From a virus, in the UHGV virus genome UHGV-0113213: a stretch of 52,407 bases of DNA; one strand, 5' to 3'. Each line of letters opens with the position of its first letter. Position 1 is the stretch's first letter. Position numbers and translations under genes: made by a program. The notes under the pieces were generated by a model. It ran no database searches and had not been told where the DNA came from. It worked only from the letters and a program-made list of their open reading frames with translations. This document shows positions 19,146 through 39,995 of this stretch, piece by piece.

Positions 19146-20077
19146 TCTTCGCCATATTTAGCGTGCGCAACTTTATAGTTTTCTTGCGCCCGATCTAATA
19201 TTCGTTCGTTTAATATGTTACCGTCTTCGTCAACTAATACGGTAATCGTGCTACATTTGCAGTTAATTGAATTAGGGGATCTACTCCACCATTCGCGCTG
19301 CTCATCTATGGTGTATGTTTTACCGTGCCGCTGCGCGTGCGATAGCCTGGTAGTCGGTGATAATGCCGAAATGTGCATTTGCATAGTGCGCAGATTAAAT
19401 TCTTCTGTCGCCGCTTCTGCCTCATCCATACGCGCTGTGCGTAACGCTGTGCATATTTCAGTTCGAGCAATACGTTTACACCTGTATAGCGGTAATTGCG
19501 TCTCCTGATTCAATGTGCGCGCTATTTCCAGTGGGTTTAAACCACGGGCCATGCCTTCAGTTAATCGCCGGGCCATATCCTTTTTGATCTGTGCGGTCAG
19601 CCCGCGCATTTCCTCAAATACACGGGTACGGACCAGAGCAAGGCGTGTTCGGTAAGTTGTACTGGATAACACGGCAGATACATCGGGATAAACGCTTGAG
19701 TACGTGACAGACTGGTTAGCAAGGTTGGCGTATTCCTGTGCCGTGCCTCGCAGATACGCGACCTTCACGTATTCCTGCCAGAACCAAAAACTTTCCGGGT
19801 CGGTTAGCTCGAATATCTCATCAATCATGTCGCTGGCGTCCTCCAGCATGTCGTGCAATTCATCCATGTAAATCTGGAAGGTATATTTCTTATTAACAGC
19901 CAGGCTATATTGTATTTTGTCCAGTATGGCGATATATGGATCGGCTACTTTTTTCAGGCAGGATTTGAAACGCTTAATAGCGCCAGACCTCAACCTCCCT
20001 GTCATGGTCGGGTCTTCGGTGTTAGATGGCATTATCGCGGCTGGAGGTATTCGCCTGATTATTTTCTTCACCTTCAT
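19136..20077 (-). CDS. Head morphogenesis protein (SPP1 gp7 / Mu F-like minor head protein)
   Basis: 313 aa directly downstream of portal; start codon uncertain (alternatives at 20032, 20005). Confidence 0.6.
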   Translation of the reverse strand: MKVKKIIRRIPPAAIMPSNTEDPTMTGRLRSGAIKRFKSCLKKVADPYIAILDKIQYSLAVNKKYTFQIYMDELHDMLEDASDMIDEIFELTDPESFWFWQEYVKVAYLRGTAQEYANLANQSVTYSSVYPDVSAVLSSTTYRTRLALVRTRVFEEMRGLTAQIKKDMARRLTEGMARGLNPLEIARTLNQETQLPLYRCKRIARTEICTALRTARMDEAEAATEEFNLRTMQMHISALSPTTRLSHAQRHGKTYTIDEQREWWSRSPNSINCKCSTITVLVDEDGNILNERILDRAQENYKVAHAKYGEDWE

Positions 20078-21395
20078 TGTCGTTTTCCTCGTCGTCCAGT
20101 TCTACTTCCTGCGTTGGCCCTTCATACCCGGCAGCCTCGCGGATCTCGTCACCGTCGAATACTTGTTCACCTGTGGCGAGACATGCCTGATTGATTTGCG
20201 CCATTTTGTATGCCGCGTCGAGTAGCTCGGCTTTCGTCATGGCGTTAAGGTCGTCCCACAGTACCGACACGTCGACTGGCATACTGATAAGGCGGAGATC
20301 TGCCATCTTGCGGAATAGTTCCTCAAGCTCGCCTCCTATTTCCTCCCGGCGGGTCATACAGCGGTTATTGAAGTAGCGGAGGTCTTCGGTTGATGCACGC
20401 TCACCCTGCTGATTCCCAACCAGGATACGCGTTGGAATGTCGATACCAGCGGCGGCGGTTTGCAGGTTGACGTCATAGGTAGCTGATGGATCCGCCACGG
20501 CAGTAACCAGCGGGCTAACGGTAGCTCCCTGTAATGCCATCATCACATCATTCCCTTTGTTTATATCCTCTGCCGCTTCATTGAATTTTTCGCGCAGCTC
20601 TGTAACGTCGCAACCGTATGTCGCAGCCAGGGAACGGAAATCAATCTCTTTGTCGAATGAGATAGCTAGTTGACGCGCTGCGTTTTTCAGAAAGGATTCA
20701 CCGCTACCGCCTTCCACTTTCTCCAGCGATACAAAAGCGTTATAGGACGGCTCAAGGAAAGCGATGGCATCATCAGAATAATCACCGAAGATAAATATGC
20801 GATCTGGATGTATCTTTCTTGCTATGGTCTTACTGTTAATGCGCTCCTTGTATTCCCACCATGTCGGCAGGCCATAGCTTTCACTTTCCGGATCTTCTTC
20901 GAAGTCCTTCGGTGTAAGAGCACCAGCCCATACAGGGGTAAATTTGGCAATGCCTACACCTTTCGTCACTGGCTGATCCCACGGCTGGTTATCCCTGACG
21001 TGAATTAACAGGCCAGCATAACGACCAATGAGGCGGCGGCGATCGCATTCAGCTATGACGCGCCAGAAACGATTATCAAATCGTTTTTTGATTTCTCTTT
21101 CCCACGGCGTTTCCTTTTTTGCTTTCTCGTCTTCCGTACCTTCGATCAGCGTTGGCCTGGTGCGCCAGCACGTAGTGATGATCTTCTCAATAGCACCGTG
21201 AGCGATACCACCGCGACGATACAGTTTGTATAAATCGGCATAGGTGATTTCTTCTTTGAATCCGTATTCACTCCACGCAGCATCACGCTTTGCATCAATA
21301 CCCATTGAGAAAGGATGCGCGGCGGCATAGCGTGCAAAGGCCGCCTGACGTTGTGACAAGGCAGCATTAACCGCCAATTCTAAATTGGATGGCAT
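20022..21395 (-). CDS. Portal protein
   Basis: ~457 aa downstream of TerL; start moved to ATG at 21393-21395 (AGGAG RBS 7 nt upstream). Confidence 0.75.
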   Translation of the reverse strand: MPSNLELAVNAALSQRQAAFARYAAAHPFSMGIDAKRDAAWSEYGFKEEITYADLYKLYRRGGIAHGAIEKIITTCWRTRPTLIEGTEDEKAKKETPWEREIKKRFDNRFWRVIAECDRRRLIGRYAGLLIHVRDNQPWDQPVTKGVGIAKFTPVWAGALTPKDFEEDPESESYGLPTWWEYKERINSKTIARKIHPDRIFIFGDYSDDAIAFLEPSYNAFVSLEKVEGGSGESFLKNAARQLAISFDKEIDFRSLAATYGCDVTELREKFNEAAEDINKGNDVMMALQGATVSPLVTAVADPSATYDVNLQTAAAGIDIPTRILVGNQQGERASTEDLRYFNNRCMTRREEIGGELEELFRKMADLRLISMPVDVSVLWDDLNAMTKAELLDAAYKMAQINQACLATGEQVFDGDEIREAAGYEGPTQEVELDDEENDNEGEENNQANTSSRDNAI

Positions 21396-21417
21396 AATGT
21401 TTACTCCTGAATGCATG

Positions 21418-21473: not shown

Positions 21474-22988
21474 TTAAAATCCGCGCAGGCGCTTAGGTAA
21501 CATAAGGCCCATTGCCTGTGGCTGGCTTAATTCAGTGATACCCCACACCATAGCGTCGAGGCGGTCAGGTGATTTTTTAGCGGTAGCTGGCACGTATTCC
21601 ATCATTTGATTTTCCAGCGTGTACAGGCTGCCTGTGTGGGCCACCCTTCCTTGTGCATACAGTGCCGATATTGGCTCGGCGCGGGCGAATTTACCCTTGC
21701 TTGCGTGCACCTTAACAATGCGGCCTTTGAATCCGGCGTTACGTAGCGTGGCCTCTGCCATATCACCACCCTGGTTGGTTTCGATAACCATCGCGTCAGC
21801 TTCATGGATGTTGTAGGCGTTCATTGCTGCTTGCGCCCAGTCATTAGGTGACATGCGTCCTGAGTAGTCACCGTCTACTGAATACTGAGCATTCTTGCCA
21901 CCACCATAAGCGGAACAGGCTACAATCCCTGTTTCGTCTGACTCATCAGATGATGTTGTCGCCGGGTCGATGGCTATCACCGTGCGAATTTTCTCCTGCG
22001 TTATCTGCATCCTGTGCGCGGCGGTTATCATCGCTTCAGTCCACAATGCGCCCTCTTGATCGAACTTGCGCGGACACTGCATATATTGAGCTTCGAATGT
22101 TCGGCGATGTGATTTAAGAGTTGATTCATCTTTATCACTATGCTTATGCAACCATAGCCAGCCATCCGGCAGGTTGTGAGGAACAGGAATAGCAAATTTG
22201 TTTTCCGGGTACAGATCCCAATAGTCAAGACTGTTGTCGATCTTCACTGGCAGGCAAAGGTGATGCCATTTCTCACCACTACCGCCACGTAACAGGTAGC
22301 CGGATAAATCATCGTAGTGGATACGCTGCATGATGACGATCACTGGCGTTGTTTGCACAGCCAGGCGCGAAGAAAGCGTGTCGTTGTAATTGGTATTAAC
22401 CTGCTTTCGCACCACATCAGAATAAGCGTCAGCTGGTTTCAGGGGGTCATCAATAATCATTGCGCCGTTAAACCCAGGTTCCATGTACCCGGCGCGGAAC
22501 CCTGTCACCTGTCCAAGCGATGACGTCGCATACACGCCGCCACCCTGAGTGGTCCACCACAGGTTTTTCGCGTTCGAATCGTTGCGCATTTGCATAGGCC
22601 ACAATTCCTGATATTGCGGCATCGTGATTATGTTTCTTGTCTCTGAGGAATTAAGCAAGGCGAGTCCGTGTGAATACGATACATGCAGGAATCTGGTGCG
22701 GGGTTCTATTGCGAGGCAGCGGGCCATCATGTGAATTGTGGCAATCATTGTTTTGCCATAGCCCGGTGGGATGTTGATTATCAACCTGGTGATTTCACCA
22801 TTAATAACTCGTTGTAGCGTATCGGCAATTATTCTGTGATGACGCCCAACCAAAAAGTCCTTGCCAACCTGTTGCTTATAAAAGTAGGAACTAAAAAACA
22901 AAGGTGCTGATATGTCTTTGGGGGCACAACCTTTAACACACAACCCCCTTAGAACCTCTCTGTCAATCTTTGTCGTCGCAGTCTCCAT
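21474..22988 (-). CDS. terL: Terminase large subunit
   Basis: 504 aa; Walker A-like PPGYGKT; C-terminal nuclease-type acidic motifs; position before portal. Confidence 0.9.
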   Translation of the reverse strand: METATTKIDREVLRGLCVKGCAPKDISAPLFFSSYFYKQQVGKDFLVGRHHRIIADTLQRVINGEITRLIINIPPGYGKTMIATIHMMARCLAIEPRTRFLHVSYSHGLALLNSSETRNIITMPQYQELWPMQMRNDSNAKNLWWTTQGGGVYATSSLGQVTGFRAGYMEPGFNGAMIIDDPLKPADAYSDVVRKQVNTNYNDTLSSRLAVQTTPVIVIMQRIHYDDLSGYLLRGGSGEKWHHLCLPVKIDNSLDYWDLYPENKFAIPVPHNLPDGWLWLHKHSDKDESTLKSHRRTFEAQYMQCPRKFDQEGALWTEAMITAAHRMQITQEKIRTVIAIDPATTSSDESDETGIVACSAYGGGKNAQYSVDGDYSGRMSPNDWAQAAMNAYNIHEADAMVIETNQGGDMAEATLRNAGFKGRIVKVHASKGKFARAEPISALYAQGRVAHTGSLYTLENQMMEYVPATAKKSPDRLDAMVWGITELSQPQAMGLMLPKRLRGF

Positions 22989-23478
22989 GAGTATTGTACT
23001 CCTTATTCAGGTTATCGATTATCTCAAGGACAGTAGTCTGATTTACTTCTACCTGGACGGGCGCTTCTTCCCTGTTACCTACGATCTCCTGCGTGACGCG
23101 CTCACCATATTTACGCGGTTGCAGTTTTGCCAGTAACCATTTACGAGTTTCAATCATCAGTTGATGGCGGCGGCATTGGTCTTTATCGGTGTTCTCCGCT
23201 GCGTCTGCTATGTCGATAATCTCATCAGCCAATATCTCAAAACCGATCTCCTTCGCGCGCATGTACATGTCCGAGAACTCCGGCACGTCTCTGAACCATT
23301 TAAGGATTGTTGAACGCGCAGGCATATCAGGCATCTTCGAAATTTTGTTAATACTCTGACCGTCCGCCACCAGCTCACAGATTTCTAATGCCTTTTCTTC
23401 GGTATAACCATGCGGACGGCCCGTCTTTTTGGCTGCTGGCTTTTTATCGTCAGCATTTGCCTTTTTAGTGCGGGCCAT
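22963..23478 (-). CDS. terS: Terminase small subunit
   Basis: 171 aa, N-terminal basic region and HTH-like segment, overlaps TerL start. Confidence 0.7.
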   Translation of the reverse strand: MARTKKANADDKKPAAKKTGRPHGYTEEKALEICELVADGQSINKISKMPDMPARSTILKWFRDVPEFSDMYMRAKEIGFEILADEIIDIADAAENTDKDQCRRHQLMIETRKWLLAKLQPRKYGERVTQEIVGNREEAPVQVEVNQTTVLEIIDNLNKEYNTHGDCDDKD

Positions 23479-23488
23479 AATTCACCTC

Positions 23489-23632
23489 TTAATCATCTTT
23501 ACCAAATCTTAATTTAAATTCATTCATCATCTTTTCTACTTCCTGTTCGGAAAGATAGATGGTTTCATTATTTTCTGCTGAATCAAGTGCCTTTCTTATT
23601 TCATCTGCTATTTTTAGTTCTTCATCGTTCAT
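23489..23632 (-). CDS. Small acidic protein (47 aa) MNDEELKIADEIRKALDSAENNETIYLSEQEVEKMMNEFKLRFGKDD
   Basis: ATG with GAGGTG RBS; last gene before terS; soluble acidic. Confidence 0.5.
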   Translation of the reverse strand: MNDEELKIADEIRKALDSAENNETIYLSEQEVEKMMNEFKLRFGKDD

Positions 23633-23643
23633 ATCGTCACCTC

Positions 23644-23727
23644 TTAATATTTGTTGATGATATATACGCAAGCCACAAAACTTGCGCAATATGTTAATAC
23701 TTCCAACCAGTCGAATAGCTCTTTCAT
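23644..23727 (-). CDS. Mini-gene, 27-aa hydrophobic peptide MKELFDWLEVLTYCASFVACVYIINKY
   Basis: ATG overlaps upstream stop (ATGA); hydrophobic helix. Confidence 0.45.
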   Translation of the reverse strand: MKELFDWLEVLTYCASFVACVYIINKY

Positions 23728-23867
23728 TGTTGCCCCTTGAATATATGCTTCGCTTCTCTGTAAATTAGCGCACCAGTCATTACAATCGCGTATACGCATA
23801 ACATTAACGCGACGATAAGCACGCCAGAACAAAGCAAAAACATCAGTAGATCGATAAATTCAAACAT
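23724..23867 (-). CDS. Mini-gene, 47-aa membrane peptide MFEFIDLLMFLLCSGVLIVALMLCVYAIVMTGALIYREAKHIFKGQQ
   Basis: ATG 8 nt after upstream stop (GGTGAG RBS); two hydrophobic stretches. Confidence 0.45.
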   Translation of the reverse strand: MFEFIDLLMFLLCSGVLIVALMLCVYAIVMTGALIYREAKHIFKGQQ

Positions 23868-23875
23868 AATATTTC

Positions 23876-23944
23876 TCACCAGGAGAAAACAATAACAACC
23901 AACAGTGCGCTTATAGCTATAATTAAGAAATCACTATCAGACAT
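23876..23944 (-). CDS. Mini-gene, 22-aa single-TM peptide MSDSDFLIIAISALLVVIVFSW
   Basis: Start overlaps upstream gene by ATGTCTGA. Confidence 0.45.
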   Translation of the reverse strand: MSDSDFLIIAISALLVVIVFSW

Positions 23945-24011
23945 TGATAATTACCAAGATAATAAATAACGCAACTGTACACACGATCAACATAATATCA
24001 ATAGCGTTCAT
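23937..24011 (-). CDS. Mini-gene, 24-aa single-TM peptide MNAIDIMLIVCTVALFIILVIINV
   Basis: GTGAG RBS then ATG 8 nt after upstream stop. Confidence 0.45.
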   Translation of the reverse strand: MNAIDIMLIVCTVALFIILVIINV

Positions 24012-24019
24012 TCGCTCAC

Positions 24020-24088
24020 CTACTGAGTCAGTGCTGTCATGGTAAGAACAATCGCGACAATCAGGAAAAAGAAATCAAGCCATTTCAT
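24020..24088 (-). CDS. Mini-gene, 22-aa single-TM peptide MKWLDFFFLIVAIVLTMTALTQ
   Basis: AGGAG RBS in 15-nt spacer. Confidence 0.45.
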   Translation of the reverse strand: MKWLDFFFLIVAIVLTMTALTQ

Positions 24089-24103
24089 TTTAACTCCTGA
24101 GAT

Positions 24104-24175
24104 TCAGTTAACACTTAAAAGCACCGCAACGATGACAATCACTATAATCATGCAAAAGAAGTCTGCTTCTCTCAT
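24104..24175 (-). CDS. Mini-gene, 23-aa single-TM peptide MREADFFCMIIVIVIVAVLLSVN
   Basis: ATGA overlap with upstream stop. Confidence 0.45.
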   Translation of the reverse strand: MREADFFCMIIVIVIVAVLLSVN

Positions 24176-24252
24176 CTTTTTAGCCCTCGATAAAAATCAA
24201 CAGCAATGACTACAACTACAGCCACCAGCAATAGCATTTCGTATGCGTTCAT
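24172..24252 (-). CDS. Mini-gene, 26-aa single-TM peptide MNAYEMLLLVAVVVVIAVDFYRGLKR
   Basis: ATGA overlap with upstream stop. Confidence 0.45.
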   Translation of the reverse strand: MNAYEMLLLVAVVVVIAVDFYRGLKR

Positions 24253-24347
24253 TTGATGCTACCCATAACAAGGCCGATGATAATAATTATGGCGACAATG
24301 CCTAACATCATTCCGAACATAATCGCCATCAGTTCGAATATATCCAT
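24249..24347 (-). CDS. Mini-gene, 32-aa single-TM peptide MDIFELMAIMFGMMLGIVAIIIIIGLVMGSIK
   Basis: ATG 3 nt after upstream stop. Confidence 0.45.
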   Translation of the reverse strand: MDIFELMAIMFGMMLGIVAIIIIIGLVMGSIK

Positions 24348-24350
24348 GCT

Positions 24351-24425
24351 TCAGCTTTCAATGAATATCATGATCGCCAGCCATACGGCGACGCATAAGG
24401 AAAGGATGATTAGCGGGTCAATCAT
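24351..24425 (-). CDS. Mini-gene, 24-aa single-TM peptide MIDPLIILSLCVAVWLAIMIFIES
   Basis: GGTGGGG RBS, ATG 4 nt after upstream stop. Confidence 0.45.
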   Translation of the reverse strand: MIDPLIILSLCVAVWLAIMIFIES

Positions 24426-24429
24426 ATTT

Positions 24430-24540
24430 TCACCCCACCAAATACTTGATATATACGTTTATCAGCGCAACTATAATAGAACCAGCAAGAAACACAGAAA
24501 CGCCGATTAATACGGCAATGATGTAAGCGGCCATAATCAT
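24430..24540 (-). CDS. Mini-gene, 36-aa membrane peptide MIMAAYIIAVLIGVSVFLAGSIIVALINVYIKYLVG
   Basis: TAATG overlap with upstream stop. Confidence 0.45.
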   Translation of the reverse strand: MIMAAYIIAVLIGVSVFLAGSIIVALINVYIKYLVG

Positions 24541-24602
24541 TACTTCCACAACAAAAACAATATTACAGCCGCCGCCATTCCGATAAATAAATAAGCGTCC
24601 AT
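24540..24602 (-). CDS. Mini-gene, 20-aa single-TM peptide MDAYLFIGMAAAVILFLLWK (first of array)
   Basis: ATG 2 nt after stop of HExxH gene, GAGG RBS inside that gene. Confidence 0.45.
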   Translation of the reverse strand: MDAYLFIGMAAAVILFLLWK

Positions 24603-24604
24603 AA

Positions 24605-25189
24605 TCAGCCTCGTTTAAAGCTCATTACACGCGGTACAAGCGCCTCTTTTGCTTTAGGCTTACGTTTGCCTTTCTTGGCTGGTTTTTTCTCTTCTTTCGG
24701 CTCCTCTGCCTGCTCTACTGCCTGTTCTGCTGCATCAGTCGCCTTTTCCGCCTGCTCCAATGCCTGCTCAACGACTTCAGCGGCCTGCATAGCTGCCAAC
24801 TGTGCTTCGTTAGATTCAGCCAGGATCGGGAAGAATGCATCAAAGATGCGGCCCACCATGTAAGCATATGTCTCGTTTGCCGGATGGCTTGGTTCTGTAG
24901 TCGCTACGACACCGACATCACTTAAAACGTGGAATGTAGTGTGAGCCGCTTCATGTACCAGCGTACCAAGCTCATTATCGAATACTGCGATCACGTAGAA
25001 GTTACCGCCTTTCTCGCCAGTGCAAGTAAGTGTTAAACCTCCTGCCAGTTCAAAATCAGGTTCGATTGGGATCCCTGCCTTTTCGCAAAATTCATAGAAC
25101 ATGTCACGAGTCGGGCAGAAGAAAACTGTTGTATGCTCGAAGAGCGGGACTTTGAATTGAGGCAACTTAATGCCTTTACCCTTAGCCAT
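24605..25189 (-). CDS. HExxH-motif protein (194 aa) with Lys/Ala/Glu-rich C-terminal tail; putative minimal zinc metallopeptidase-like protein
   Basis: Motif TLVHEAAHTTFHV; low-complexity repeat AEQAVEQAEEPKEEKKPAKKGKRKPKAK; directly precedes mini-gene array. Confidence 0.55.
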   Translation of the reverse strand: MAKGKGIKLPQFKVPLFEHTTVFFCPTRDMFYEFCEKAGIPIEPDFELAGGLTLTCTGEKGGNFYVIAVFDNELGTLVHEAAHTTFHVLSDVGVVATTEPSHPANETYAYMVGRIFDAFFPILAESNEAQLAAMQAAEVVEQALEQAEKATDAAEQAVEQAEEPKEEKKPAKKGKRKPKAKEALVPRVMSFKRG

Positions 25190-25526
25190 CAGAATATTCC
25201 TCTATCCTGAAAAATATAACCCCCGCAAAACTGGACACCGCAGGGAGTGAAAACAGATATAAAACACTGAAAACGGCGCTTAGTGAGTACCGTTTGCAGA
25301 ATTTTATAAAACTGGACCTGCTTAACATCTCTGATAAACAGATCCGGGCGCTCGTCCTACGCGTGGCAGGTGAGTAAATGGCGCTTTCTTCTACCCAGGT
25401 AGCGCCGTACCTGTTAATGAGGTTGTTTACCCGGTATTACGTGTTTTTGAATTTCCGCCGTCGCTCGCGGGAAGGATTGACCCGGTTATGGCTGGCTGGC
25501 AGAAACGGCGACACGTCCACGAGCTG

Positions 25527-26015
25527 TTATTCTTTACGCAAGCACTGCGTTTTGATGTAGTCCTGTAGGCCAGTGATCTGTGCGTCTTTTATTTTTAGTT
25601 GTTCTCTGAGGGATAGATAAGCCGATTTAGCGTCGGCAGTAGGTTCGCAGGTGGCTCCATCAATGCGGCTGGAGGTTCCGGTATTACTGTCTGTTCGCAT
25701 TGGCACGGCGTTGACGCGCAACCGGATAGTACCGTTATCAATGCCAGTGCGCAGATCGGCAATGTCAGATCTGATAGCTTTAATCTCATCGTGATACCTC
25801 TTATCAAGTTTTGACAGTTCGGCGTTTCGCTCCTTCATCTGCTGAATAGTGTTACTTGCTGTCTTCAGTGCGCCTTTCGTCACCGTGACTTCTTCCTGTA
25901 ACCTTGTCGCCTCACCCTGGTAATAACACGTTACGGCGGTTAGTCCGGCAATAATGCAAACAACAGCGGCGATAATTAACGCCTTCACCTTGTCCACGTT
26001 TCCCCCCATTCGCAA
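25527..26015 (-). CDS. Rz: Rz-like i-spanin
   Basis: N-terminal TM helix, coiled-coil periplasmic domain, C-terminal Cys; contains embedded Rz1 in +1 frame; overlaps endolysin end. Confidence 0.8.
25595..25789 (-). CDS. Rz1: Rz1-like o-spanin lipoprotein embedded within Rz
   Basis: [24 protein letters not shown] lipobox followed by Pro-rich short mature peptide; embedded in Rz reading frame +1. Confidence 0.8.
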   Translation of the reverse strand: MRLKLSDLTLPICALALITVLSGCASTPCQCEQTVIPEPPAALMEPPANLLPTLNRLIYPSENN

Positions 26016-26476
26016 ACGGCATATTCAACATCTCGGCGGTTTACCAGGCCTTGCCACTTCTTACCACCAGCGTATACCCAGCGTTTAAGCTGTGCGCACG
26101 CCTCTGATTTCTTACCGTCATTGAGTAGCTTTAATAAGGTTGATGTTTTGAAGTTGGTTGCGCCTACGTTATAGGCGAATGAATAAAGCGCAGCGCGGGT
26201 AAAATCTGATATTTCGACTTTGATATATGGGTTAATCGCTTTTGCGGTTTTGTGGAGATCTTTGTTTAACAAAGTATCGCATTCTGATTGCGTGTAAGTC
26301 TTACCAAGCATGATGTCTTTTCCGGTGTGACCATAGCAAACAGTCCATACACCGATAACATCACGATAAGGATCGTACTCCACGCCCTCTAATGGTTTAA
26401 CCATCACAGCCGCAATAGCGATCGCCCCACCAGCCGCCGCAGCAATAATTTTATTCTTCAGCGATTGGCTAATCAT
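25985..26476 (-). CDS. SAR endolysin (T4-type lysozyme fold, GH24-like)
   Basis: N-terminal signal-arrest-release segment [17 protein letters not shown] then E...D...T catalytic pattern ([23 protein letters not shown]); start at ATG 26474-26476 one nt after holin stop. Confidence 0.85.
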
Positions 26477-26477
26477 G

Positions 26478-26678
26478 TTACTTATTCCCCATTCGCGCGT
26501 CGTGTTCCTCTTGCGCTCGCTTGTTCTCCTGTGATTTGAAGTAATAGTTAACGGCAAATGTGCCTATGGTTGATAAGATACCCACAAAGACAGCAATATC
26601 ATTAATGGTTATCGCGCCGAAAAAAGCAGTTACGGCCCCGGTCACATACGCGCACGCCTCCCGTATTCTGTCGAACAT
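26478..26678 (-). CDS. Holin (pinholin-like, class II)
   Basis: 66 aa, two hydrophobic helices, charged C-terminus; GGAGG RBS; directly upstream of SAR endolysin. Confidence 0.7.
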
Positions 26679-26689
26679 AGATTTTCCTC

Positions 26690-26722
26690 CAACAAAGCAA
26701 AAACCCGGCTCGTGGCCGGGTA
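26690..26722 (-). terminator. Rho-independent terminator immediately upstream of holin (tR-prime-like)
   Basis: Stem CCCGGC/GCCGGG followed by long U-run on minus strand, ~15 nt before holin RBS. Confidence 0.65.
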
Positions 26723-39490: not shown

Positions 39491-39753
39491 ACGCCGTACA
39501 TCCCATTCAGCCCGGCAAACAATTTCCGCCAGTGGTCTTCAACATAATCCCGGAACGGCTTAACGCGAACATTGCGGGCCTTCAGTTCAATCTTGTCAAA
39601 GAAACGAGGCTCAATAATCGTTCCATCCAGATATTTAACCAGGATCGGGCGCTCAAGATCGTTATATGTCTTGTTCAGCACAACCAGACCAGGGTCGCTA
39701 CGATATTCTGGCAAAACAACAAGATCGCCATCTTTTGCATTCCAAGTAACCAT
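39481..39753 (-). CDS. Hypothetical protein (~90 aa)
   Basis: ATG overlaps upstream mini-gene stop (TGATG). Confidence 0.45.
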   Translation of the reverse strand: MVTWNAKDGDLVVLPEYRSDPGLVVLNKTYNDLERPILVKYLDGTIIEPRFFDKIELKARNVRVKPFRDYVEDHWRKLFAGLNGMYGVWL

Positions 39754-39872
39754 CACATCGCCCCTTTACAAATAAAGCTAATCACCGCAGCAAGTGCGCC
39801 GCAAAACACAATCGTAAACAGGAAACAAATAACGCAAAAAGCGACCCTTACAATATTCTTGCAAACCTTCAT
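39753..39872 (-). CDS. Mini-gene, 39-aa Cys-rich membrane peptide MKVCKNIVRVAFCVICFLFTIVFCGALAAVISFICKGAM
   Basis: ATG 3 nt after upstream mini-gene stop. Confidence 0.4.
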   Translation of the reverse strand: MKVCKNIVRVAFCVICFLFTIVFCGALAAVISFICKGAM

Positions 39873-39875
39873 AAC

Positions 39876-39995
39876 TCACCCCAACAATGCAACAATTAAT
39901 TCAGCAATAAAAACGGCGACATAAAAAGAAGCTGTGATATAAATCACCCCAATAACGAAGGCGGCGGCTAATGCCGCAATTTTTACCATGCTCAT
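39876..39995 (-). CDS. Mini-gene, 39-aa membrane peptide MSMVKIAALAAAFVIGVIYITASFYVAVFIAELIVALLG
   Basis: ATGA overlap with upstream gene stop. Confidence 0.4.
   Translation of the reverse strand: MSMVKIAALAAAFVIGVIYITASFYVAVFIAELIVALLG

What the first reader, a model, noticed from the sequence alone, without database searches (positions are those of the whole stretch)
23644..24602. Operon of eleven overlapping mini-genes encoding single-helix membrane peptides between the lysis module and terminase
Reading the minus strand from 24602 to 23644 gives eleven consecutive ATG-initiated ORFs of 20-47 codons. Each has a short polar or acidic N-terminus (MD, MID, MDIFE, MNAYE, MREAD, MKWLD, MNAID, MSDSD, MFEFID, MKELFD) followed by an 18-25 residue hydrophobic helix. 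Every junction is either a start/stop overlap (TAATG, ATGA three times, ATGTCTGA) or a 3-15 nt spacer, several carrying GGAG/GGTG-type RBS. The first mini-gene starts 2 nt after the stop of the HExxH gene and the last feeds into a 47-aa acidic protein and then terS. AT-skew alone could produce hydrophobic ORFs but not ten uninterrupted start-stop couplings in one direction. I know of no described lambdoid module like this. Candidate roles are a diversified family of holin/antiholin-like lysis regulators, membrane-acting superinfection-exclusion or abortive-infection peptides, or substrates or partners of the adjacent HExxH protein.
Basis: seen in the sequence. Interest (0 to 1): 0.88.

Follow-up and report, generated by a model that had tools for sequence, protein, structure and literature searches.

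The report
Phage array of tiny membrane-peptide genes
A 1-kb stretch that genome annotation leaves empty in a temperate E. coli phage is packed with eleven real, selection-constrained genes for 20-47-residue hydrophobic peptides predicted to span the membrane once; related phages carry 2-13 of them in ever-different combinations, and their function is unknown.

Summary
Minus strand 24602-23644 holds eleven ATG ORFs (20-47 codons). All are strongly hydrophobic, and they are joined by overlaps (TAATG, ATGA x3, ATGTCTGA) or 3-15-nt spacers.

It is not chance. In 55 related loci (mEpimmI-type coliphages and prophages) the peptides fall into about 20 families in a fixed order. I counted 497 intact copies against about 9 disrupted. 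pN/pS is 0.09-0.37 in the called frame and about 0.5-2.9 in the other frames. SD-like motifs precede 73% of starts, against 17% at random positions.

No chain longer than 2 such ORFs occurs in 457 kb of 71 unrelated phage loci.

The array is a pan-array. There are 43 architectures in 55 loci. Whole cassettes are gained or lost exactly at intercistronic junctions, and one gene (F03/F21) is universal.

No peptide matches Pfam, NCBIfam or PHROGs. RefSeq leaves the stretch unannotated, and I found no description in the literature.

Best reading: these are late-operon, single-pass inner-membrane micropeptides, predicted N-out/C-in, that act through helix-helix contacts as individually dispensable accessory factors. 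Lysis tuning is the main rival. Translation, membrane location and function are untested.

The parts
24540..24602 (-). Mini-gene 1 (family F17), 20 aa, MDAYLFIGMAAAVILFLLWK. It starts 2 nt after the stop of the HExxH gene.
   Evidence: Present in 8 of 55 related loci. GxxxA motif.
24430..24540 (-). Mini-gene 2 (F04), 36 aa from the ATG at 24540 (TAATG overlap) or 34 aa from the ATG at 24534: M(IM)AAYIIAVLIGVSVFLAGSIIVALINVYIKYLVG.
   Evidence: Present in 46 of 55 loci; pN/pS 0.25.
24351..24425 (-). Mini-gene 3 (F00), 24 aa, MIDPLIILSLCVAVWLAIMIFIES. Near-core gene.
   Evidence: Present in 51-52 of 55 loci; pN/pS 0.29; GGTG 9 nt upstream of the start.
24249..24347 (-). Mini-gene 4 (F08), 32 aa, MDIFELMAIMFGMMLGIVAIIIIIGLVMGSIK. 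Carries two GxxxG motifs.
   Evidence: Present in 24 of 55 loci; pN/pS 0.12.
24172..24252 (-). Mini-gene 5 (F01), 26 aa, MNAYEMLLLVAVVVVIAVDFYRGLKR. ATGA overlap with gene 4. Near-core gene.
   Evidence: Present in 51-54 of 55 loci; pN/pS 0.24; paralogue of F18 (z = 7.1).
24104..24175 (-). Mini-gene 6 (F10), 23 aa, MREADFFCMIIVIVIVAVLLSVN. ATGA overlap with gene 5.
   Evidence: Present in 19 of 55 loci; pN/pS 0.24; paralogue of F02 (z = 4.9).
24020..24088 (-). Mini-gene 7 (F02), 22 aa, MKWLDFFFLIVAIVLTMTALTQ. GGAG 9 nt upstream. Near-core gene.
   Evidence: Present in 51 of 55 loci; pN/pS 0.13.
23937..24011 (-). Mini-gene 8 (F05), 24 aa, MNAIDIMLIVCTVALFIILVIINV.
   Evidence: Present in 39 of 55 loci; pN/pS 0.37. 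An intact F06 follows in 35 of those 39; in the other 4, F06 is present but has lost its start codon (ATG to ACG).
23876..23944 (-). Mini-gene 9 (F06), 22 aa, MSDSDFLIIAISALLVVIVFSW. 8-nt overlap (ATGTCTGA) with gene 8.
   Evidence: The -8 overlap is conserved in 35 of 35 loci; pN/pS 0.30.
23724..23867 (-). Mini-gene 10 (F14), 47 aa, MFEFIDLLMFLLCSGVLIVALMLCVYAIVMTGALIYREAKHIFKGQQ. Long hydrophobic stretch followed by a basic tail.
   Evidence: Present in 12 of 55 loci; pN/pS 0.27. Only 2 related clusters among 1.84 billion representatives. One homologue lies in an unrelated 75-kb phage-like contig.
23644..23727 (-). Mini-gene 11 (F03), 27 aa, MKELFDWLEVLTYCASFVACVYIINKY. ATGA overlap with gene 10. 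The least hydrophobic of the eleven, the universal member, and always last in the array.
   Evidence: F03 or its allelic form F21 is present in 55 of 55 loci. pN/pS is 0.09, the strongest constraint.
23489..23632 (-). 47-aa acidic, non-hydrophobic ORF (F19), between the array and terS. Not a member of the hydrophobic families.
   Evidence: Present in only about 5 of 55 loci. It is the only gene PGAP annotates in this interval.
22963..23478 (-). Small terminase subunit (Sf6-like); downstream boundary of the array.
   Evidence: Pfam PF20901, E = 1.5e-37.
24605..25189 (-). 194-aa HExxH protein (phrog_1365; one database name is 'PolyVal metallopeptidase'); upstream boundary of the array.
   Evidence: AF2 model has pLDDT 71 and no PDB fold match.
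25527..26678 (-). Lysis cassette upstream in the same orientation: a 66-aa two-TMD holin (26478-26678), an endolysin with an Ala/Gly-rich SAR-like N-terminus (25985-26476), and Rz (25527-25997).
26703..26721 (-). GC-rich hairpin followed by a T-run upstream of the holin; the likely terminator that late transcription must read through.
   Evidence: A terminator is annotated at the same position in mEp021, mEp010 and mEp515.

Best explanation
The stretch is a genuine polycistronic array of eleven micro-genes inside the phage late operon (holin, endolysin, Rz, HExxH gene, array, terS, terL).

How they are expressed. Each gene is translated from its own SD-like motif or by termination-reinitiation at an overlapping stop/start. 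Each product is little more than one hydrophobic helix. The N-terminus is short and acidic, and the C-terminus is neutral or basic. By the positive-inside rule this predicts post-translational insertion into the inner membrane with the N-terminus out and the C-terminus in, in the manner of the Pf3 coat protein or small E. coli membrane proteins.

How they probably act. Catalysis is out of the question for peptides this small. The peptides most likely act one by one through intramembrane helix-helix contacts; several carry GxxxG or small-xxx-small motifs. The likely targets are host, or possibly phage, membrane proteins or membrane energetics during lytic growth.

How the array evolves. The array is an accessory 'pan-array'. 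About 20 peptide families occupy a fixed order. Most are individually dispensable. Whole cassettes are gained and lost by recombination at the repeated junction (stop, (A)GGTGA, 4-6 nt, ATG) and at the paralogous 5' ends.

What is shown: coding status, selection, order, cassette dynamics and restriction to this lineage.

What is inferred: late co-transcription, membrane insertion and topology, and the mode of action.

My preferred role is host-membrane-directed accessory function: blocking membrane-based defence or abortive infection, blocking superinfection, or preventing untimely depolarisation. I prefer this to a core lysis function.

The confidence of 0.55 is for the whole statement. For 'translated hydrophobic peptides destined for the membrane' alone it is about 0.85-0.9. 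For the accessory, host-directed role it is about 0.35-0.4.
For: Coding status:
- pN/pS is 0.09-0.37 in all 15 families whose alleles vary (overall 0.23); the sixteenth, F17, has a single allele. The +1 and +2 frames of the same alignments give about 0.5-2.9. Third-position changes dominate.
- 497 copies are intact and about 9 are truly disrupted.
- SD-like 4-mers precede 343 of 469 starts, against 17% of random positions.
- Junction gaps fall almost always between -8 and +18 nt.

Not chance:
- 10 of the 28 hydrophobic mini-ORFs in the window lie in this 1 kb, all on one strand.
- The longest chain in 457 kb x 2 strands of unrelated phage DNA is 2.

Predicted topology:
- The N-flank is net acidic in 17 of 23 families. 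The C-flank is neutral or basic in all but three rare families.

Accessory nature:
- There are 43 architectures in 55 loci, with a fixed gene order.
- Interval length ranges from 319 to 1155 bp. Minimal arrays exist with 2-3 genes (L058, L031).
- The holin is nearly invariant (median 98% identity) while the array varies. Loci with identical holin, endolysin and Rz carry different arrays.
- A 62%-identical homologue of F14 sits in an unrelated 75-kb contig, next to other hydrophobic mini-ORFs.
- GC content is 35-40% against about 48-50% in the flanks.

Cassette mechanism:
- Indels coincide with junctions that share GGTGA-ATG and paralogous 5' ends.
- Paralogy is supported for F18-F01 (z = 7.1) and F10-F02 (z = 4.9).

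Late expression:
- No convincing internal promoter or terminator was found.
Against: - No direct evidence of translation, membrane localisation or any phenotype exists in the data or the literature I could reach.
- The promoter scan is a crude sigma-70 consensus scan. It cannot exclude weak internal promoters, and therefore cannot exclude expression from the prophage.
- The array lies in the same late transcript as a lysis cassette that looks like a pinholin/SAR-endolysin system. That position is equally compatible with a lysis-timing role.
- Several uncharged cores are short (13-16 residues). F03 is only moderately hydrophobic, so not every member need span the membrane.
- The cross-phage occurrence of F14 is a single case.
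- The pairwise pN/pS values are not corrected for phylogeny.
Confidence: 0.55

Rival explanations
1. Lysis-timing regulators. The peptides are holin- or antiholin-like partners, or small depolarising or PMF-buffering peptides. On this view they tune when the two-TMD holin triggers and when the SAR-type endolysin is released. The number of cassettes would set the lysis clock.
For: - The array shares orientation and, probably, a transcript with holin, endolysin and Rz.
- The endolysin has an Ala/Gly-rich SAR-like N-terminus, and the holin is a 66-aa two-TMD protein. Such systems are sensitive to depolarisation (established knowledge of pinholin/SAR lysis).
- GxxxG-type motifs are typical of interactions between holin TMDs.
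- Actinobacteriophage lysis cassettes carry up to four holin-like TMD proteins (PMC9671378, PMC11385102).
Against: - The array is separated from the lysis genes by Rz, a gap of about 340 nt and the HExxH gene.
- A bona fide holin is already present.
- No holin HMM matches; the best is phrog_920, E = 0.18, for one peptide only.
- The holin is nearly invariant while array content changes freely, and identical lysis cassettes carry different arrays.
- A homologue of F14 occurs away from any recognisable lysis cassette of this type.
Confidence: 0.25
2. Prophage-expressed toxins or exclusion factors. The peptides are type-I-toxin-like or Sie/Abi-like membrane peptides made in the lysogen. They protect it from other phages or stabilise the prophage.
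For: - Size and hydrophobicity resemble Ibs, Ldr, ShoB, TisB, DinQ and YohP (own knowledge; PMC3567139 and PMC7549839, listed).
- Low GC and presence/absence polymorphism resemble morons.
- mEpimmI phages are known to carry exclusion functions elsewhere in the genome (Lpp, Rep; PMC11893012).
Against: - No promoter-like site rises above the shuffle expectation, and no terminator brackets the array.
- No Rfam antisense-RNA family matches.
- No toxin HMM matches.
- Tight coupling to the upstream late gene and to terS argues for late expression rather than lysogenic expression.
Confidence: 0.1
3. The peptides are substrates, or membrane anchors, of the adjacent HExxH (PolyVal-like metallopeptidase) protein.
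For: - The first mini-gene starts 2 nt after the stop of the HExxH gene.
- The HExxH motif and surrounding residues are invariant.
- One homologue is named 'PolyVal metallopeptidase'.
- The two lie next to each other in all 55 mEp-type loci.
Against: - Homologues in P22-like phages (36-45% identity, HExxH conserved) lie between Rz and terS, or near sieA, with no mini-gene array.
- In mEp013 an HNH endonuclease gene sits between the two.
- Array content varies from 2 to 13 genes beside a protein whose N-terminal domain (residues 1-125) is 83-100% identical across the 55 loci.
- The AF2 model gives no protease fold match.
Confidence: 0.05
4. The stretch is non-coding. It would be a T-rich packaging (pac), regulatory or spacer region whose ORFs are by-products of base composition.
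For: - The coding strand is T-rich and low in GC, which by itself favours hydrophobic ORFs.
- Gene callers and PGAP do not call these ORFs.
Against: - Purifying selection is frame-specific in every family whose alleles vary.
- 98% of 511 copies are intact.
- Indels are whole genes.
- SD motifs are enriched before the starts.
- No tandem DNA repeat and no RNA family was found.
- No comparable chain exists upstream of 60 or so other Sf6-type terS genes.
Confidence: 0.02

Closest known systems
Small single-TM regulatory proteins of E. coli and Salmonella (AcrZ, MgrB, MgtS, MgtR, PmrR, CydX, KdpF, YohP)
   Same: They have fewer than 50 residues and are essentially one TM helix. They have no enzymatic domain, are inserted without a cleaved signal peptide, and act (where known) by binding larger membrane proteins or by perturbing the membrane (own knowledge; PMC12648545 and PMC7549839, listed).
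   Different: They are chromosomal, solitary genes. There is no sequence similarity. None forms a translationally coupled array or shows cassette polymorphism.
Type I toxins in tandem repeats (ldrA-C with rdl, ibs with sib, and hok, tisB, shoB, dinQ)
   Same: They are hydrophobic single-helix peptides of 18-50 aa. The ldr and ibs loci are tandemly repeated in E. coli. Overexpression depolarises the membrane (own knowledge; PMC3567139).
   Different: Each toxin unit has its own promoter and an antisense RNA, and the copies are near-identical repeats of about 0.5 kb. Here the genes are 63-144 nt long, abut or overlap, differ from one another, have no antisense RNA family and no DNA tandem repeat, and sit in a phage late operon.
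Holins, antiholins and the multiple 'holin-like TMD proteins' of actinobacteriophage lysis cassettes
   Same: They are small phage membrane proteins encoded in the late or lysis region. Up to four distinct TMD proteins can lie in a row (PMC9671378, PMC11385102, PMC13056207).
   Different: Holin-like proteins are usually 60-150 aa with 1-4 TMDs and a charged C-terminal domain, and they lie next to the endolysin. Here the peptides are 20-47 aa and number 2-13. They are separated from the lysis genes, match no holin HMM, and vary independently of the holin.
Operons of tandem mini-genes for leaderless helical peptides (S. aureus psm-alpha1-4; multi-peptide leaderless bacteriocins such as aureocin A70)
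   Same: The architecture is the same: several co-transcribed mini-genes, each with its own start, encoding helical peptides of about 20-35 aa made without leaders (own knowledge).
   Different: Those peptides are amphipathic or cationic, soluble and secreted by dedicated ABC exporters, and they occur in Gram-positive bacteria. The phage peptides are uniformly hydrophobic with acidic N-termini, and no exporter or immunity gene is nearby.
Pf3 coat protein and M13 procoat type membrane insertion
   Same: A short acidic N-tail, one hydrophobic helix and a basic C-terminus give N-out/C-in insertion through YidC without a signal peptide (own knowledge). This is the model for how the peptides would insert.
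   Different: The resemblance concerns insertion only. Those are virion coat proteins of filamentous phages, and there is no homology.
Hydrophobic intergenic microproteins of Enterobacteriaceae (Entero67K catalogue, PMC11188072)
   Same: They are smORFs of 15-70 codons under purifying selection, mostly hydrophobic, often co-directional with and close to neighbouring genes.
   Different: That survey treats isolated intergenic smORFs and does not mention prophages, terminase or tandem arrays (0 occurrences). Here up to 13 different micro-genes tile one interval.

Membership tests
Holin / antiholin | At least one transmembrane domain | tested here: met
   Uncharged hydrophobic cores of 13-30 residues. 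Mean Kyte-Doolittle hydropathy is 1.1-2.6 for ten of the eleven and 0.78 for F03. Prediction only.
Holin / antiholin | Gene lies within the lysis cassette, next to the endolysin | tested here: not met
   A 66-aa holin already sits directly upstream of the endolysin. The array is separated from Rz by about 340 nt plus the 194-aa gene.
Holin / antiholin | Hydrophilic, highly charged C-terminal cytoplasmic domain | tested here: not met
   Most peptides end within or right after the hydrophobic core. Only F14 (REAKHIFKGQQ) and F01 (DFYRGLKR in this window; DVYREFKK in the commonest allele) have short charged tails.
Holin / antiholin | Similarity to a described holin family | tested here: not met
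   The best match is phrog_920 (holin), E = 0.18, for F14 only. Nothing in Pfam or NCBIfam.
Holin / antiholin | Timed lethal hole formation, or inhibition of it | not testable with these tools
   Requires expression and lysis-curve experiments.
Type I toxin-antitoxin (Ibs, Ldr, Hok, TisB, ShoB, DinQ) | Small hydrophobic single-helix peptide | tested here: met
Type I toxin-antitoxin (Ibs, Ldr, Hok, TisB, ShoB, DinQ) | Cognate antisense or overlapping sRNA antitoxin | tested here: not met
   Only one sub-threshold Rfam match at E up to 1 in 22900-25600 (a CRISPR direct-repeat model, E = 0.4, inside terS), and no antisense-RNA family. No opposite-strand promoter above the shuffle expectation. An undescribed sRNA cannot be excluded.
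Type I toxin-antitoxin (Ibs, Ldr, Hok, TisB, ShoB, DinQ) | Stand-alone unit with its own promoter | tested here: inconclusive
   The consensus scan finds only two 9/12 matches on the coding strand inside the array, fewer sites than in shuffles. The genes abut or overlap. A consensus scan cannot prove absence.
Type I toxin-antitoxin (Ibs, Ldr, Hok, TisB, ShoB, DinQ) | Match to a toxin family model | tested here: not met
Regulatory small membrane proteins (AcrZ/MgrB/MgtS type) | Fewer than 50 aa, one TM helix, no other domain | tested here: met
Regulatory small membrane proteins (AcrZ/MgrB/MgtS type) | Binds and modulates a specific larger membrane protein | not testable with these tools
   Needs pull-down, two-hybrid or AlphaFold-Multimer screens.
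Leaderless multi-peptide bacteriocins / PSM operons | Tandem co-transcribed mini-genes for helical peptides of 20-35 aa | tested here: met
Leaderless multi-peptide bacteriocins / PSM operons | Amphipathic or cationic, soluble peptides with a dedicated exporter or immunity gene nearby | tested here: not met
   The peptides have acidic N-termini and uniformly hydrophobic bodies. The neighbours are the HExxH gene and terS.
Moron (autonomous accessory cassette in a late operon) | Presence/absence polymorphism and atypical base composition | tested here: met
   43 architectures in 55 loci. GC 35-40% against about 48-50% in the flanks.
Moron (autonomous accessory cassette in a late operon) | Own promoter and terminator allowing expression from the prophage | tested here: inconclusive
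   None found by consensus scan. The scan has low power.
Non-coding pac/cos or spacer DNA | No frame-specific constraint; indels not in codon or gene units | tested here: not met
   pN/pS is 0.23 in frame against about 0.5-2.9 out of frame. 497 intact copies against about 9 disrupted. Whole-gene indels.

The most novel reading that the evidence does not exclude
mEpimmI phages carry a combinatorial, fast-reshuffling library of 'bare' transmembrane helices. Each peptide would be an intramembrane binder that inactivates a different host inner-membrane protein, such as a TM effector of an abortive-infection or defence system, a DNA-entry or transport component used by competing phages, or a sensor. 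Cassette gain and loss at the repeated junction motif would let the phage adapt its set to the local host population. That would be a membrane-embedded counterpart of anti-defence gene islands, and a natural source of specific TM-helix inhibitors.
Probability: 0.25. Interest if true: 0.9.

Novelty: new variant of a known kind. Interest (0 to 1): 0.74.

Why it matters
Annotation. About 1 kb that RefSeq shows as empty is among the most gene-dense DNA in the phage. It holds up to 13 genes, each under purifying selection. Similar arrays are invisible to standard gene callers, so phage micro-proteomes are under-counted.

A tractable system. The array is a natural experiment on minimal membrane proteins. 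About 20 families of peptides of 20-47 residues occur in isolated, cultivable K-12 phages (mEp021 has only 4 to 5, mEp044 has 8), with many natural knock-outs. Deletion, swapping and partner hunts are straightforward.

If the peptides prove to be specific intramembrane inhibitors, or lysis-clock tuners, that would establish a new way for phages to manipulate the host envelope and would supply ready-made TM-helix ligands.

Evolution. The repeated junction and paralogous 5' ends show how micro-genes can duplicate, diverge and be shuffled as exact cassettes.

Tried and rejected
- Family searches. PHROGs, Pfam and NCBIfam searches of the peptides at E up to 1-10 gave nothing credible.
- tblastn of the 11 concatenated peptides against 50,697 phage records returned only the seven mEp-group phages.
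- phmmer of F14 against 1.84 billion representatives gave two true relatives plus low-complexity hits to large multi-TM proteins.
- The concatenated peptides searched against the 5.8-billion-protein database gave only two artefactual read-through ORFs, in which TGA was read as Trp.
- A genome-contig scan with the 194-aa neighbour found no confirmed locus.
- Structure route for the HExxH neighbour: the AF2 model has pLDDT 71, and Foldseek against the PDB gave no match at E of 0.001 or better. I dropped this line because it concerns the neighbour, not the array.
- Rfam and Tandem Repeats Finder on the region found no known RNA and no DNA tandem repeat in the array. This rejects a recent DNA repeat or a known sRNA locus.
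- My first intactness count was flawed, because some family alleles carried upstream in-frame extensions. I redid it with modal-length alleles.
- The 'overlap' label is unreliable, because any ATG followed by A scores as ATGA. Only the SD statistic from that call is used.
- Correlating array content with lysis-gene alleles yielded only one informative group.
- Lipobox idea for F00 (LSAC in relatives): rejected. The window allele is LSLC, and the would-be signal peptide is 10 residues long with an acidic n-region.
- Folding the 340-nt gap between Rz and the HExxH gene gave z = -2.8 but nothing interpretable.


Full report
**1. The observation**

There are eleven ATG-initiated ORFs of 20, 36 (or 34), 24, 32, 26, 23, 22, 24, 22, 47 and 27 codons.

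The junction gaps are -1 (TAATG), +4, +3, -4, -4 (ATGA), +15, +8, -8 (ATGTCTGA), +8 and -4 nt. The first ORF starts 2 nt after the stop of a 194-aa HExxH protein gene (24605-25189). The last is followed by a 47-aa acidic ORF and then terS (Pfam Sf6_terminase).

Upstream, in the same orientation, lie a 66-aa two-TMD holin, an endolysin with an Ala/Gly-rich SAR-like N-terminus, and Rz. Upstream of those is a hairpin followed by a T-run, which relatives annotate as a terminator.

All eleven products are hydrophobic. Mean Kyte-Doolittle hydropathy is 1.2-2.6 for ten of them and 0.78 for the last.

The array is an outlier by two measures.
- Within the window, 10 of the 28 ATG ORFs of 18-60 aa that contain a strongly hydrophobic 17-residue stretch lie in this 1 kb, all on one strand.
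- In 71 unrelated phage loci (457 kb, both strands), the longest chain of such ORFs is 2. Here it is 10.

**2. What element this is**

The region matches the mEp021 group of temperate coliphages at 82-91% identity: mEp021, mEp010, mEp013, mEp044, mEp515, mEp554 and MagusPhagus. It also matches prophages in 35 of 5,426 complete E. coli genomes, one of them (strain M15) at 99.9%.

These are the Nus-dependent 'non-lambdoid' mEpimmI phages of PMC11893012.

That paper never uses the words transmembrane, holin or terminase. GenBank annotations of the phages call only some of the ORFs, as 'hypothetical protein'. RefSeq/PGAP annotates nothing in the roughly 970 bp of the M15 prophage.

**3. Are they genes?**

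I used the 194-aa neighbour as an anchor and collected 47 IMG/VR loci. With the 7 GenBank phages and the window, that makes 55 loci.

*A pan-array with fixed order.* The interval between the neighbour's stop and the terS start ranges from 319 to 1155 bp. The mini-ORFs in it cluster into about 20 hydrophobic families. They always appear in the same order:

[F15|F09|F20|F25|F17] F04 [F23|F18] F00 [F07][F29][F08] F01 [F10] F02 [F05 F06][F12][F14] F03 [acidic F19]

Each slot may be filled or empty. That gives 43 distinct architectures in 55 loci.

*Frame-specific selection.* Nei-Gojobori pN/pS in the called frame is 0.09-0.37 for each of the 15 families whose alleles vary (overall 0.23); F17 has a single allele. 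The same alignments read in the +1 and +2 frames give about 0.5-2.9. Variable sites are concentrated at third positions.

*Intact copies.* A nucleotide-level census finds 497 intact copies. About 9 are genuinely damaged:
- one lineage with F06 ATG changed to ACG (4 loci);
- one 3' remnant of F06;
- one frameshifted F07;
- one F07 with ATG changed to ATA;
- one F08 that has lost its stop codon;
- one F04-F00 fusion.

*Ribosome-binding sites and junctions.* SD-like 4-mers lie 3-12 nt upstream of 73% of starts, against 17% of random positions in the same DNA. Junction gaps are almost always between -8 and +18 nt.

*Other readings excluded.* The array has no DNA tandem repeat. The only Rfam match at E up to 1 in the region is a sub-threshold CRISPR-repeat hit inside terS.

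It is not what is seen. These are protein-coding genes under purifying selection, and most are individually dispensable.

**4. Anatomy of the peptides**

*Charge pattern.* In 17 of 23 families the residues before the uncharged core are net acidic, typically with a D or E at positions 2-6. The C-terminal flank is neutral or basic in all but three rare families. The uncharged cores are 13-30 residues long.

By the positive-inside rule this predicts single-pass, N-out/C-in insertion. With peptides of 20-27 residues there is room for little besides the helix.

*Helix-packing motifs.* Several carry GxxxG, GxxxA or glycine-zipper motifs. These can be read directly from the sequences: F08 has two GxxxG motifs, F09 has GxxxGxxxA, and F17 has GxxxA.

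*Partial paralogy.* F18-F01 (z = 7.1) and the adjacent F10-F02 (z = 4.9) score far above shuffled controls. F03/F21, F07/F33 and F09/F20 are allelic forms occupying the same slot. F05 and F06 overlap by 8 nt in every case. F05 is followed by an intact F06 in 35 of its 39 loci; in the other four, F06 is present but has lost its start codon.

*The universal last gene.* F03 (or F21) is the only universal member (55 of 55) and is always last. It has the strongest constraint (pN/pS 0.09) and is the least hydrophobic. It may have a different job from the rest, possibly linked to terS.

**5. How the array changes**

Indels coincide exactly with intercistronic junctions. The junctions share a short motif: stop, (A)GGTGA, 4-6 nt, ATG. 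The 5' ends of paralogous genes are also similar (ATGAAyGCnTAyGA...; ATGAraxxGAyTTC...).

As a result, removing or adding a cassette regenerates a normal junction, including the ATGA overlaps. This looks like unequal or short-homology recombination between repeated junction-plus-start sequences. That mechanism is an inference.

The array has 35-40% GC against about 48-50% in the flanks, and its coding strand is T-rich.

**6. Distribution**

*No known family.* No peptide matches PHROGs, Pfam or NCBIfam.

*Restricted to this lineage.*
- tblastn of the concatenated peptides against 50,697 phage records finds only the seven mEp-group phages.
- About 60 phages with distantly related Sf6-type terS have nothing comparable upstream of terS.
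- Divergent members of the lineage still carry the same families. L057, whose neighbour protein is 59% identical, has seven. L058 has only F12 and F03.

*One escape.* F14, the only peptide long enough for an exhaustive search, has two related clusters among 1.84 billion representatives. One of them (62% identity) lies in an unrelated 75-kb contig. That contig's only resemblance to known phages is a 390-nt stretch at 66-68% identity to rV5-like myophages. There the F14 homologue is followed by two other hydrophobic mini-ORFs. At least one micro-gene therefore moves, and is kept, outside this array.

**7. The neighbour**

The N-terminal 125 residues of the 194-aa protein are 36-45% identical to ORFs of P22-like phages (ST64T gp49, epsilon34 gp70, HK620 hkcC), with the HExxH motif conserved. 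One database entry names a homologue 'PolyVal metallopeptidase'. The AF2 model (pLDDT 71) has no significant PDB match.

ST64T and HK620 have no mini-gene array after this gene. In mEp013 an HNH endonuclease gene is inserted between it and the array. A substrate or partner relationship is therefore unlikely.

**8. Mechanism**

*Shown:* a polycistronic set of selected micro-genes for hydrophobic peptides, in the late-gene orientation, with cassette dynamics.

*Inferred:* the genes are co-transcribed with the late operon, since no convincing internal promoter or terminator was found. They are translated by SD-driven initiation and by coupling at overlaps. The peptides insert N-out/C-in and act through helix-helix contacts.

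*Biological role.* I favour host-membrane-directed accessory functions over a core lysis role. Such functions could be blocking membrane-based defence or abortive infection, blocking superinfection, or preventing untimely depolarisation. My reasons:
- The peptides are individually dispensable and extremely mosaic, while the holin is almost invariant (median 98% identity).
- Loci with identical lysis proteins carry different arrays.
- F14 functions in a foreign context.
- From general knowledge of lambdoid and P22-like genomes, the slot between lysis genes and terminase is a classic cargo position.

The lysis-timing rival stays serious. The lysis cassette looks like a pinholin/SAR-endolysin system, which is intrinsically sensitive to membrane potential. 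Multiple holin-like TMD proteins are also known in actinobacteriophage lysis cassettes.

**9. Comparison with what is known, and novelty**

Small single-TM proteins and type I toxins are well known. So are hydrophobic microproteins under selection in Enterobacteriaceae (PMC11188072), multiple holin-like proteins, and operons of tandem peptide mini-genes such as PSMs and leaderless bacteriocins.

What I could not find described anywhere is this combination:
- a phage late-operon array of up to 13 different, translationally coupled genes for bare TM helices of 20-47 residues;
- a fixed order together with cassette-level presence/absence polymorphism.

Membership in the holin, type I toxin and leaderless-bacteriocin families fails on defining features that I tested (see the table). 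I therefore rate it a new variant of a known kind (small membrane proteins) with unknown function. The limits are that my literature access is partial and I could not scan all phage genomes for analogous arrays.

**10. Verdict**

The core interpretation is supported, and function is open.

My confidence that these are translated hydrophobic peptides destined for the membrane is about 0.85-0.9. My confidence in the accessory, host-directed role is about 0.35-0.4, and in the lysis-tuning role about 0.25.

Noticed in passing
window 39753-39995 (-): Two adjacent 39-aa hydrophobic ORFs, separated by a 3-nt gap: MKVCKNIVRVAFCVICFLFTIVFCGALAAVISFICKGAM and MSMVKIAALAAAFVIGVIYITASFYVAVFIAELIVALLG. They sit in a run of overlapping small genes of the early region. 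The stretch is conserved at 77-88% identity in mEp044, mEp013, mEp010 and MagusPhagus, where it is annotated as hypothetical proteins. The phage therefore has further small membrane proteins outside the array.
   Followed up: partly
L140 3001-3468 (Logan contig SRR33454221_2576): An F14 homologue (62% identity) lies in an unrelated 75-kb phage-like contig. It is followed by two more hydrophobic mini-ORFs of 39 and 51 aa. A small analogous cluster may exist in another phage lineage.
   Followed up: partly
L007 1999-2484 (mEp013); L057 2752-3273; L058 5250-5753: An HNH endonuclease gene occupies three different positions in related phages: between the HExxH gene and the array, between endolysin and Rz, and between terS and terL. 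This behaviour is typical of a mobile homing endonuclease.
   Followed up: no
window 20022-21416 (-); L139 6576-7501: RefSeq/PGAP names the gene after terL 'anti-CBASS protein Acb1 family protein'. The same gene in relatives is annotated as portal and hits Pfam Phage_portal_3. This is probably a misleading automatic name.
   Followed up: no
L002 3117-3185, L003 3383-3441 and similar loci (not in the window): In arrays that lack F05/F06, a conserved spacer of 59-69 nt lies between F02 and F03/F21. It contains the perfect palindrome GCGCATTTTATGCGC. It could be a hairpin or a decayed cassette.
   Followed up: no
window 25190-25526 (-): The roughly 340-nt gap between Rz and the HExxH gene has no convincing ORF. 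It folds more stably than shuffled controls (z = -2.8), and mEp021 annotates a terminator there. It is a possible regulatory boundary inside the late operon.
   Followed up: partly
window 25985-26678 (-): The endolysin N-terminus ([31 protein letters not shown]) looks like a signal-anchor-release (SAR) domain. The 66-aa holin has two TMDs, the first rich in Gly, Ala and Thr. Together these suggest a pinholin/SAR-endolysin lysis system in this phage group.
   Followed up: no
P0200, P0201 (ENA contigs of 788 and 769 bp): Public protein databases hold 166- and 176-aa 'proteins' that are read-throughs of several mini-genes with TGA translated as Trp. These are a gene-calling artefact of using the wrong genetic code.
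   Followed up: yes
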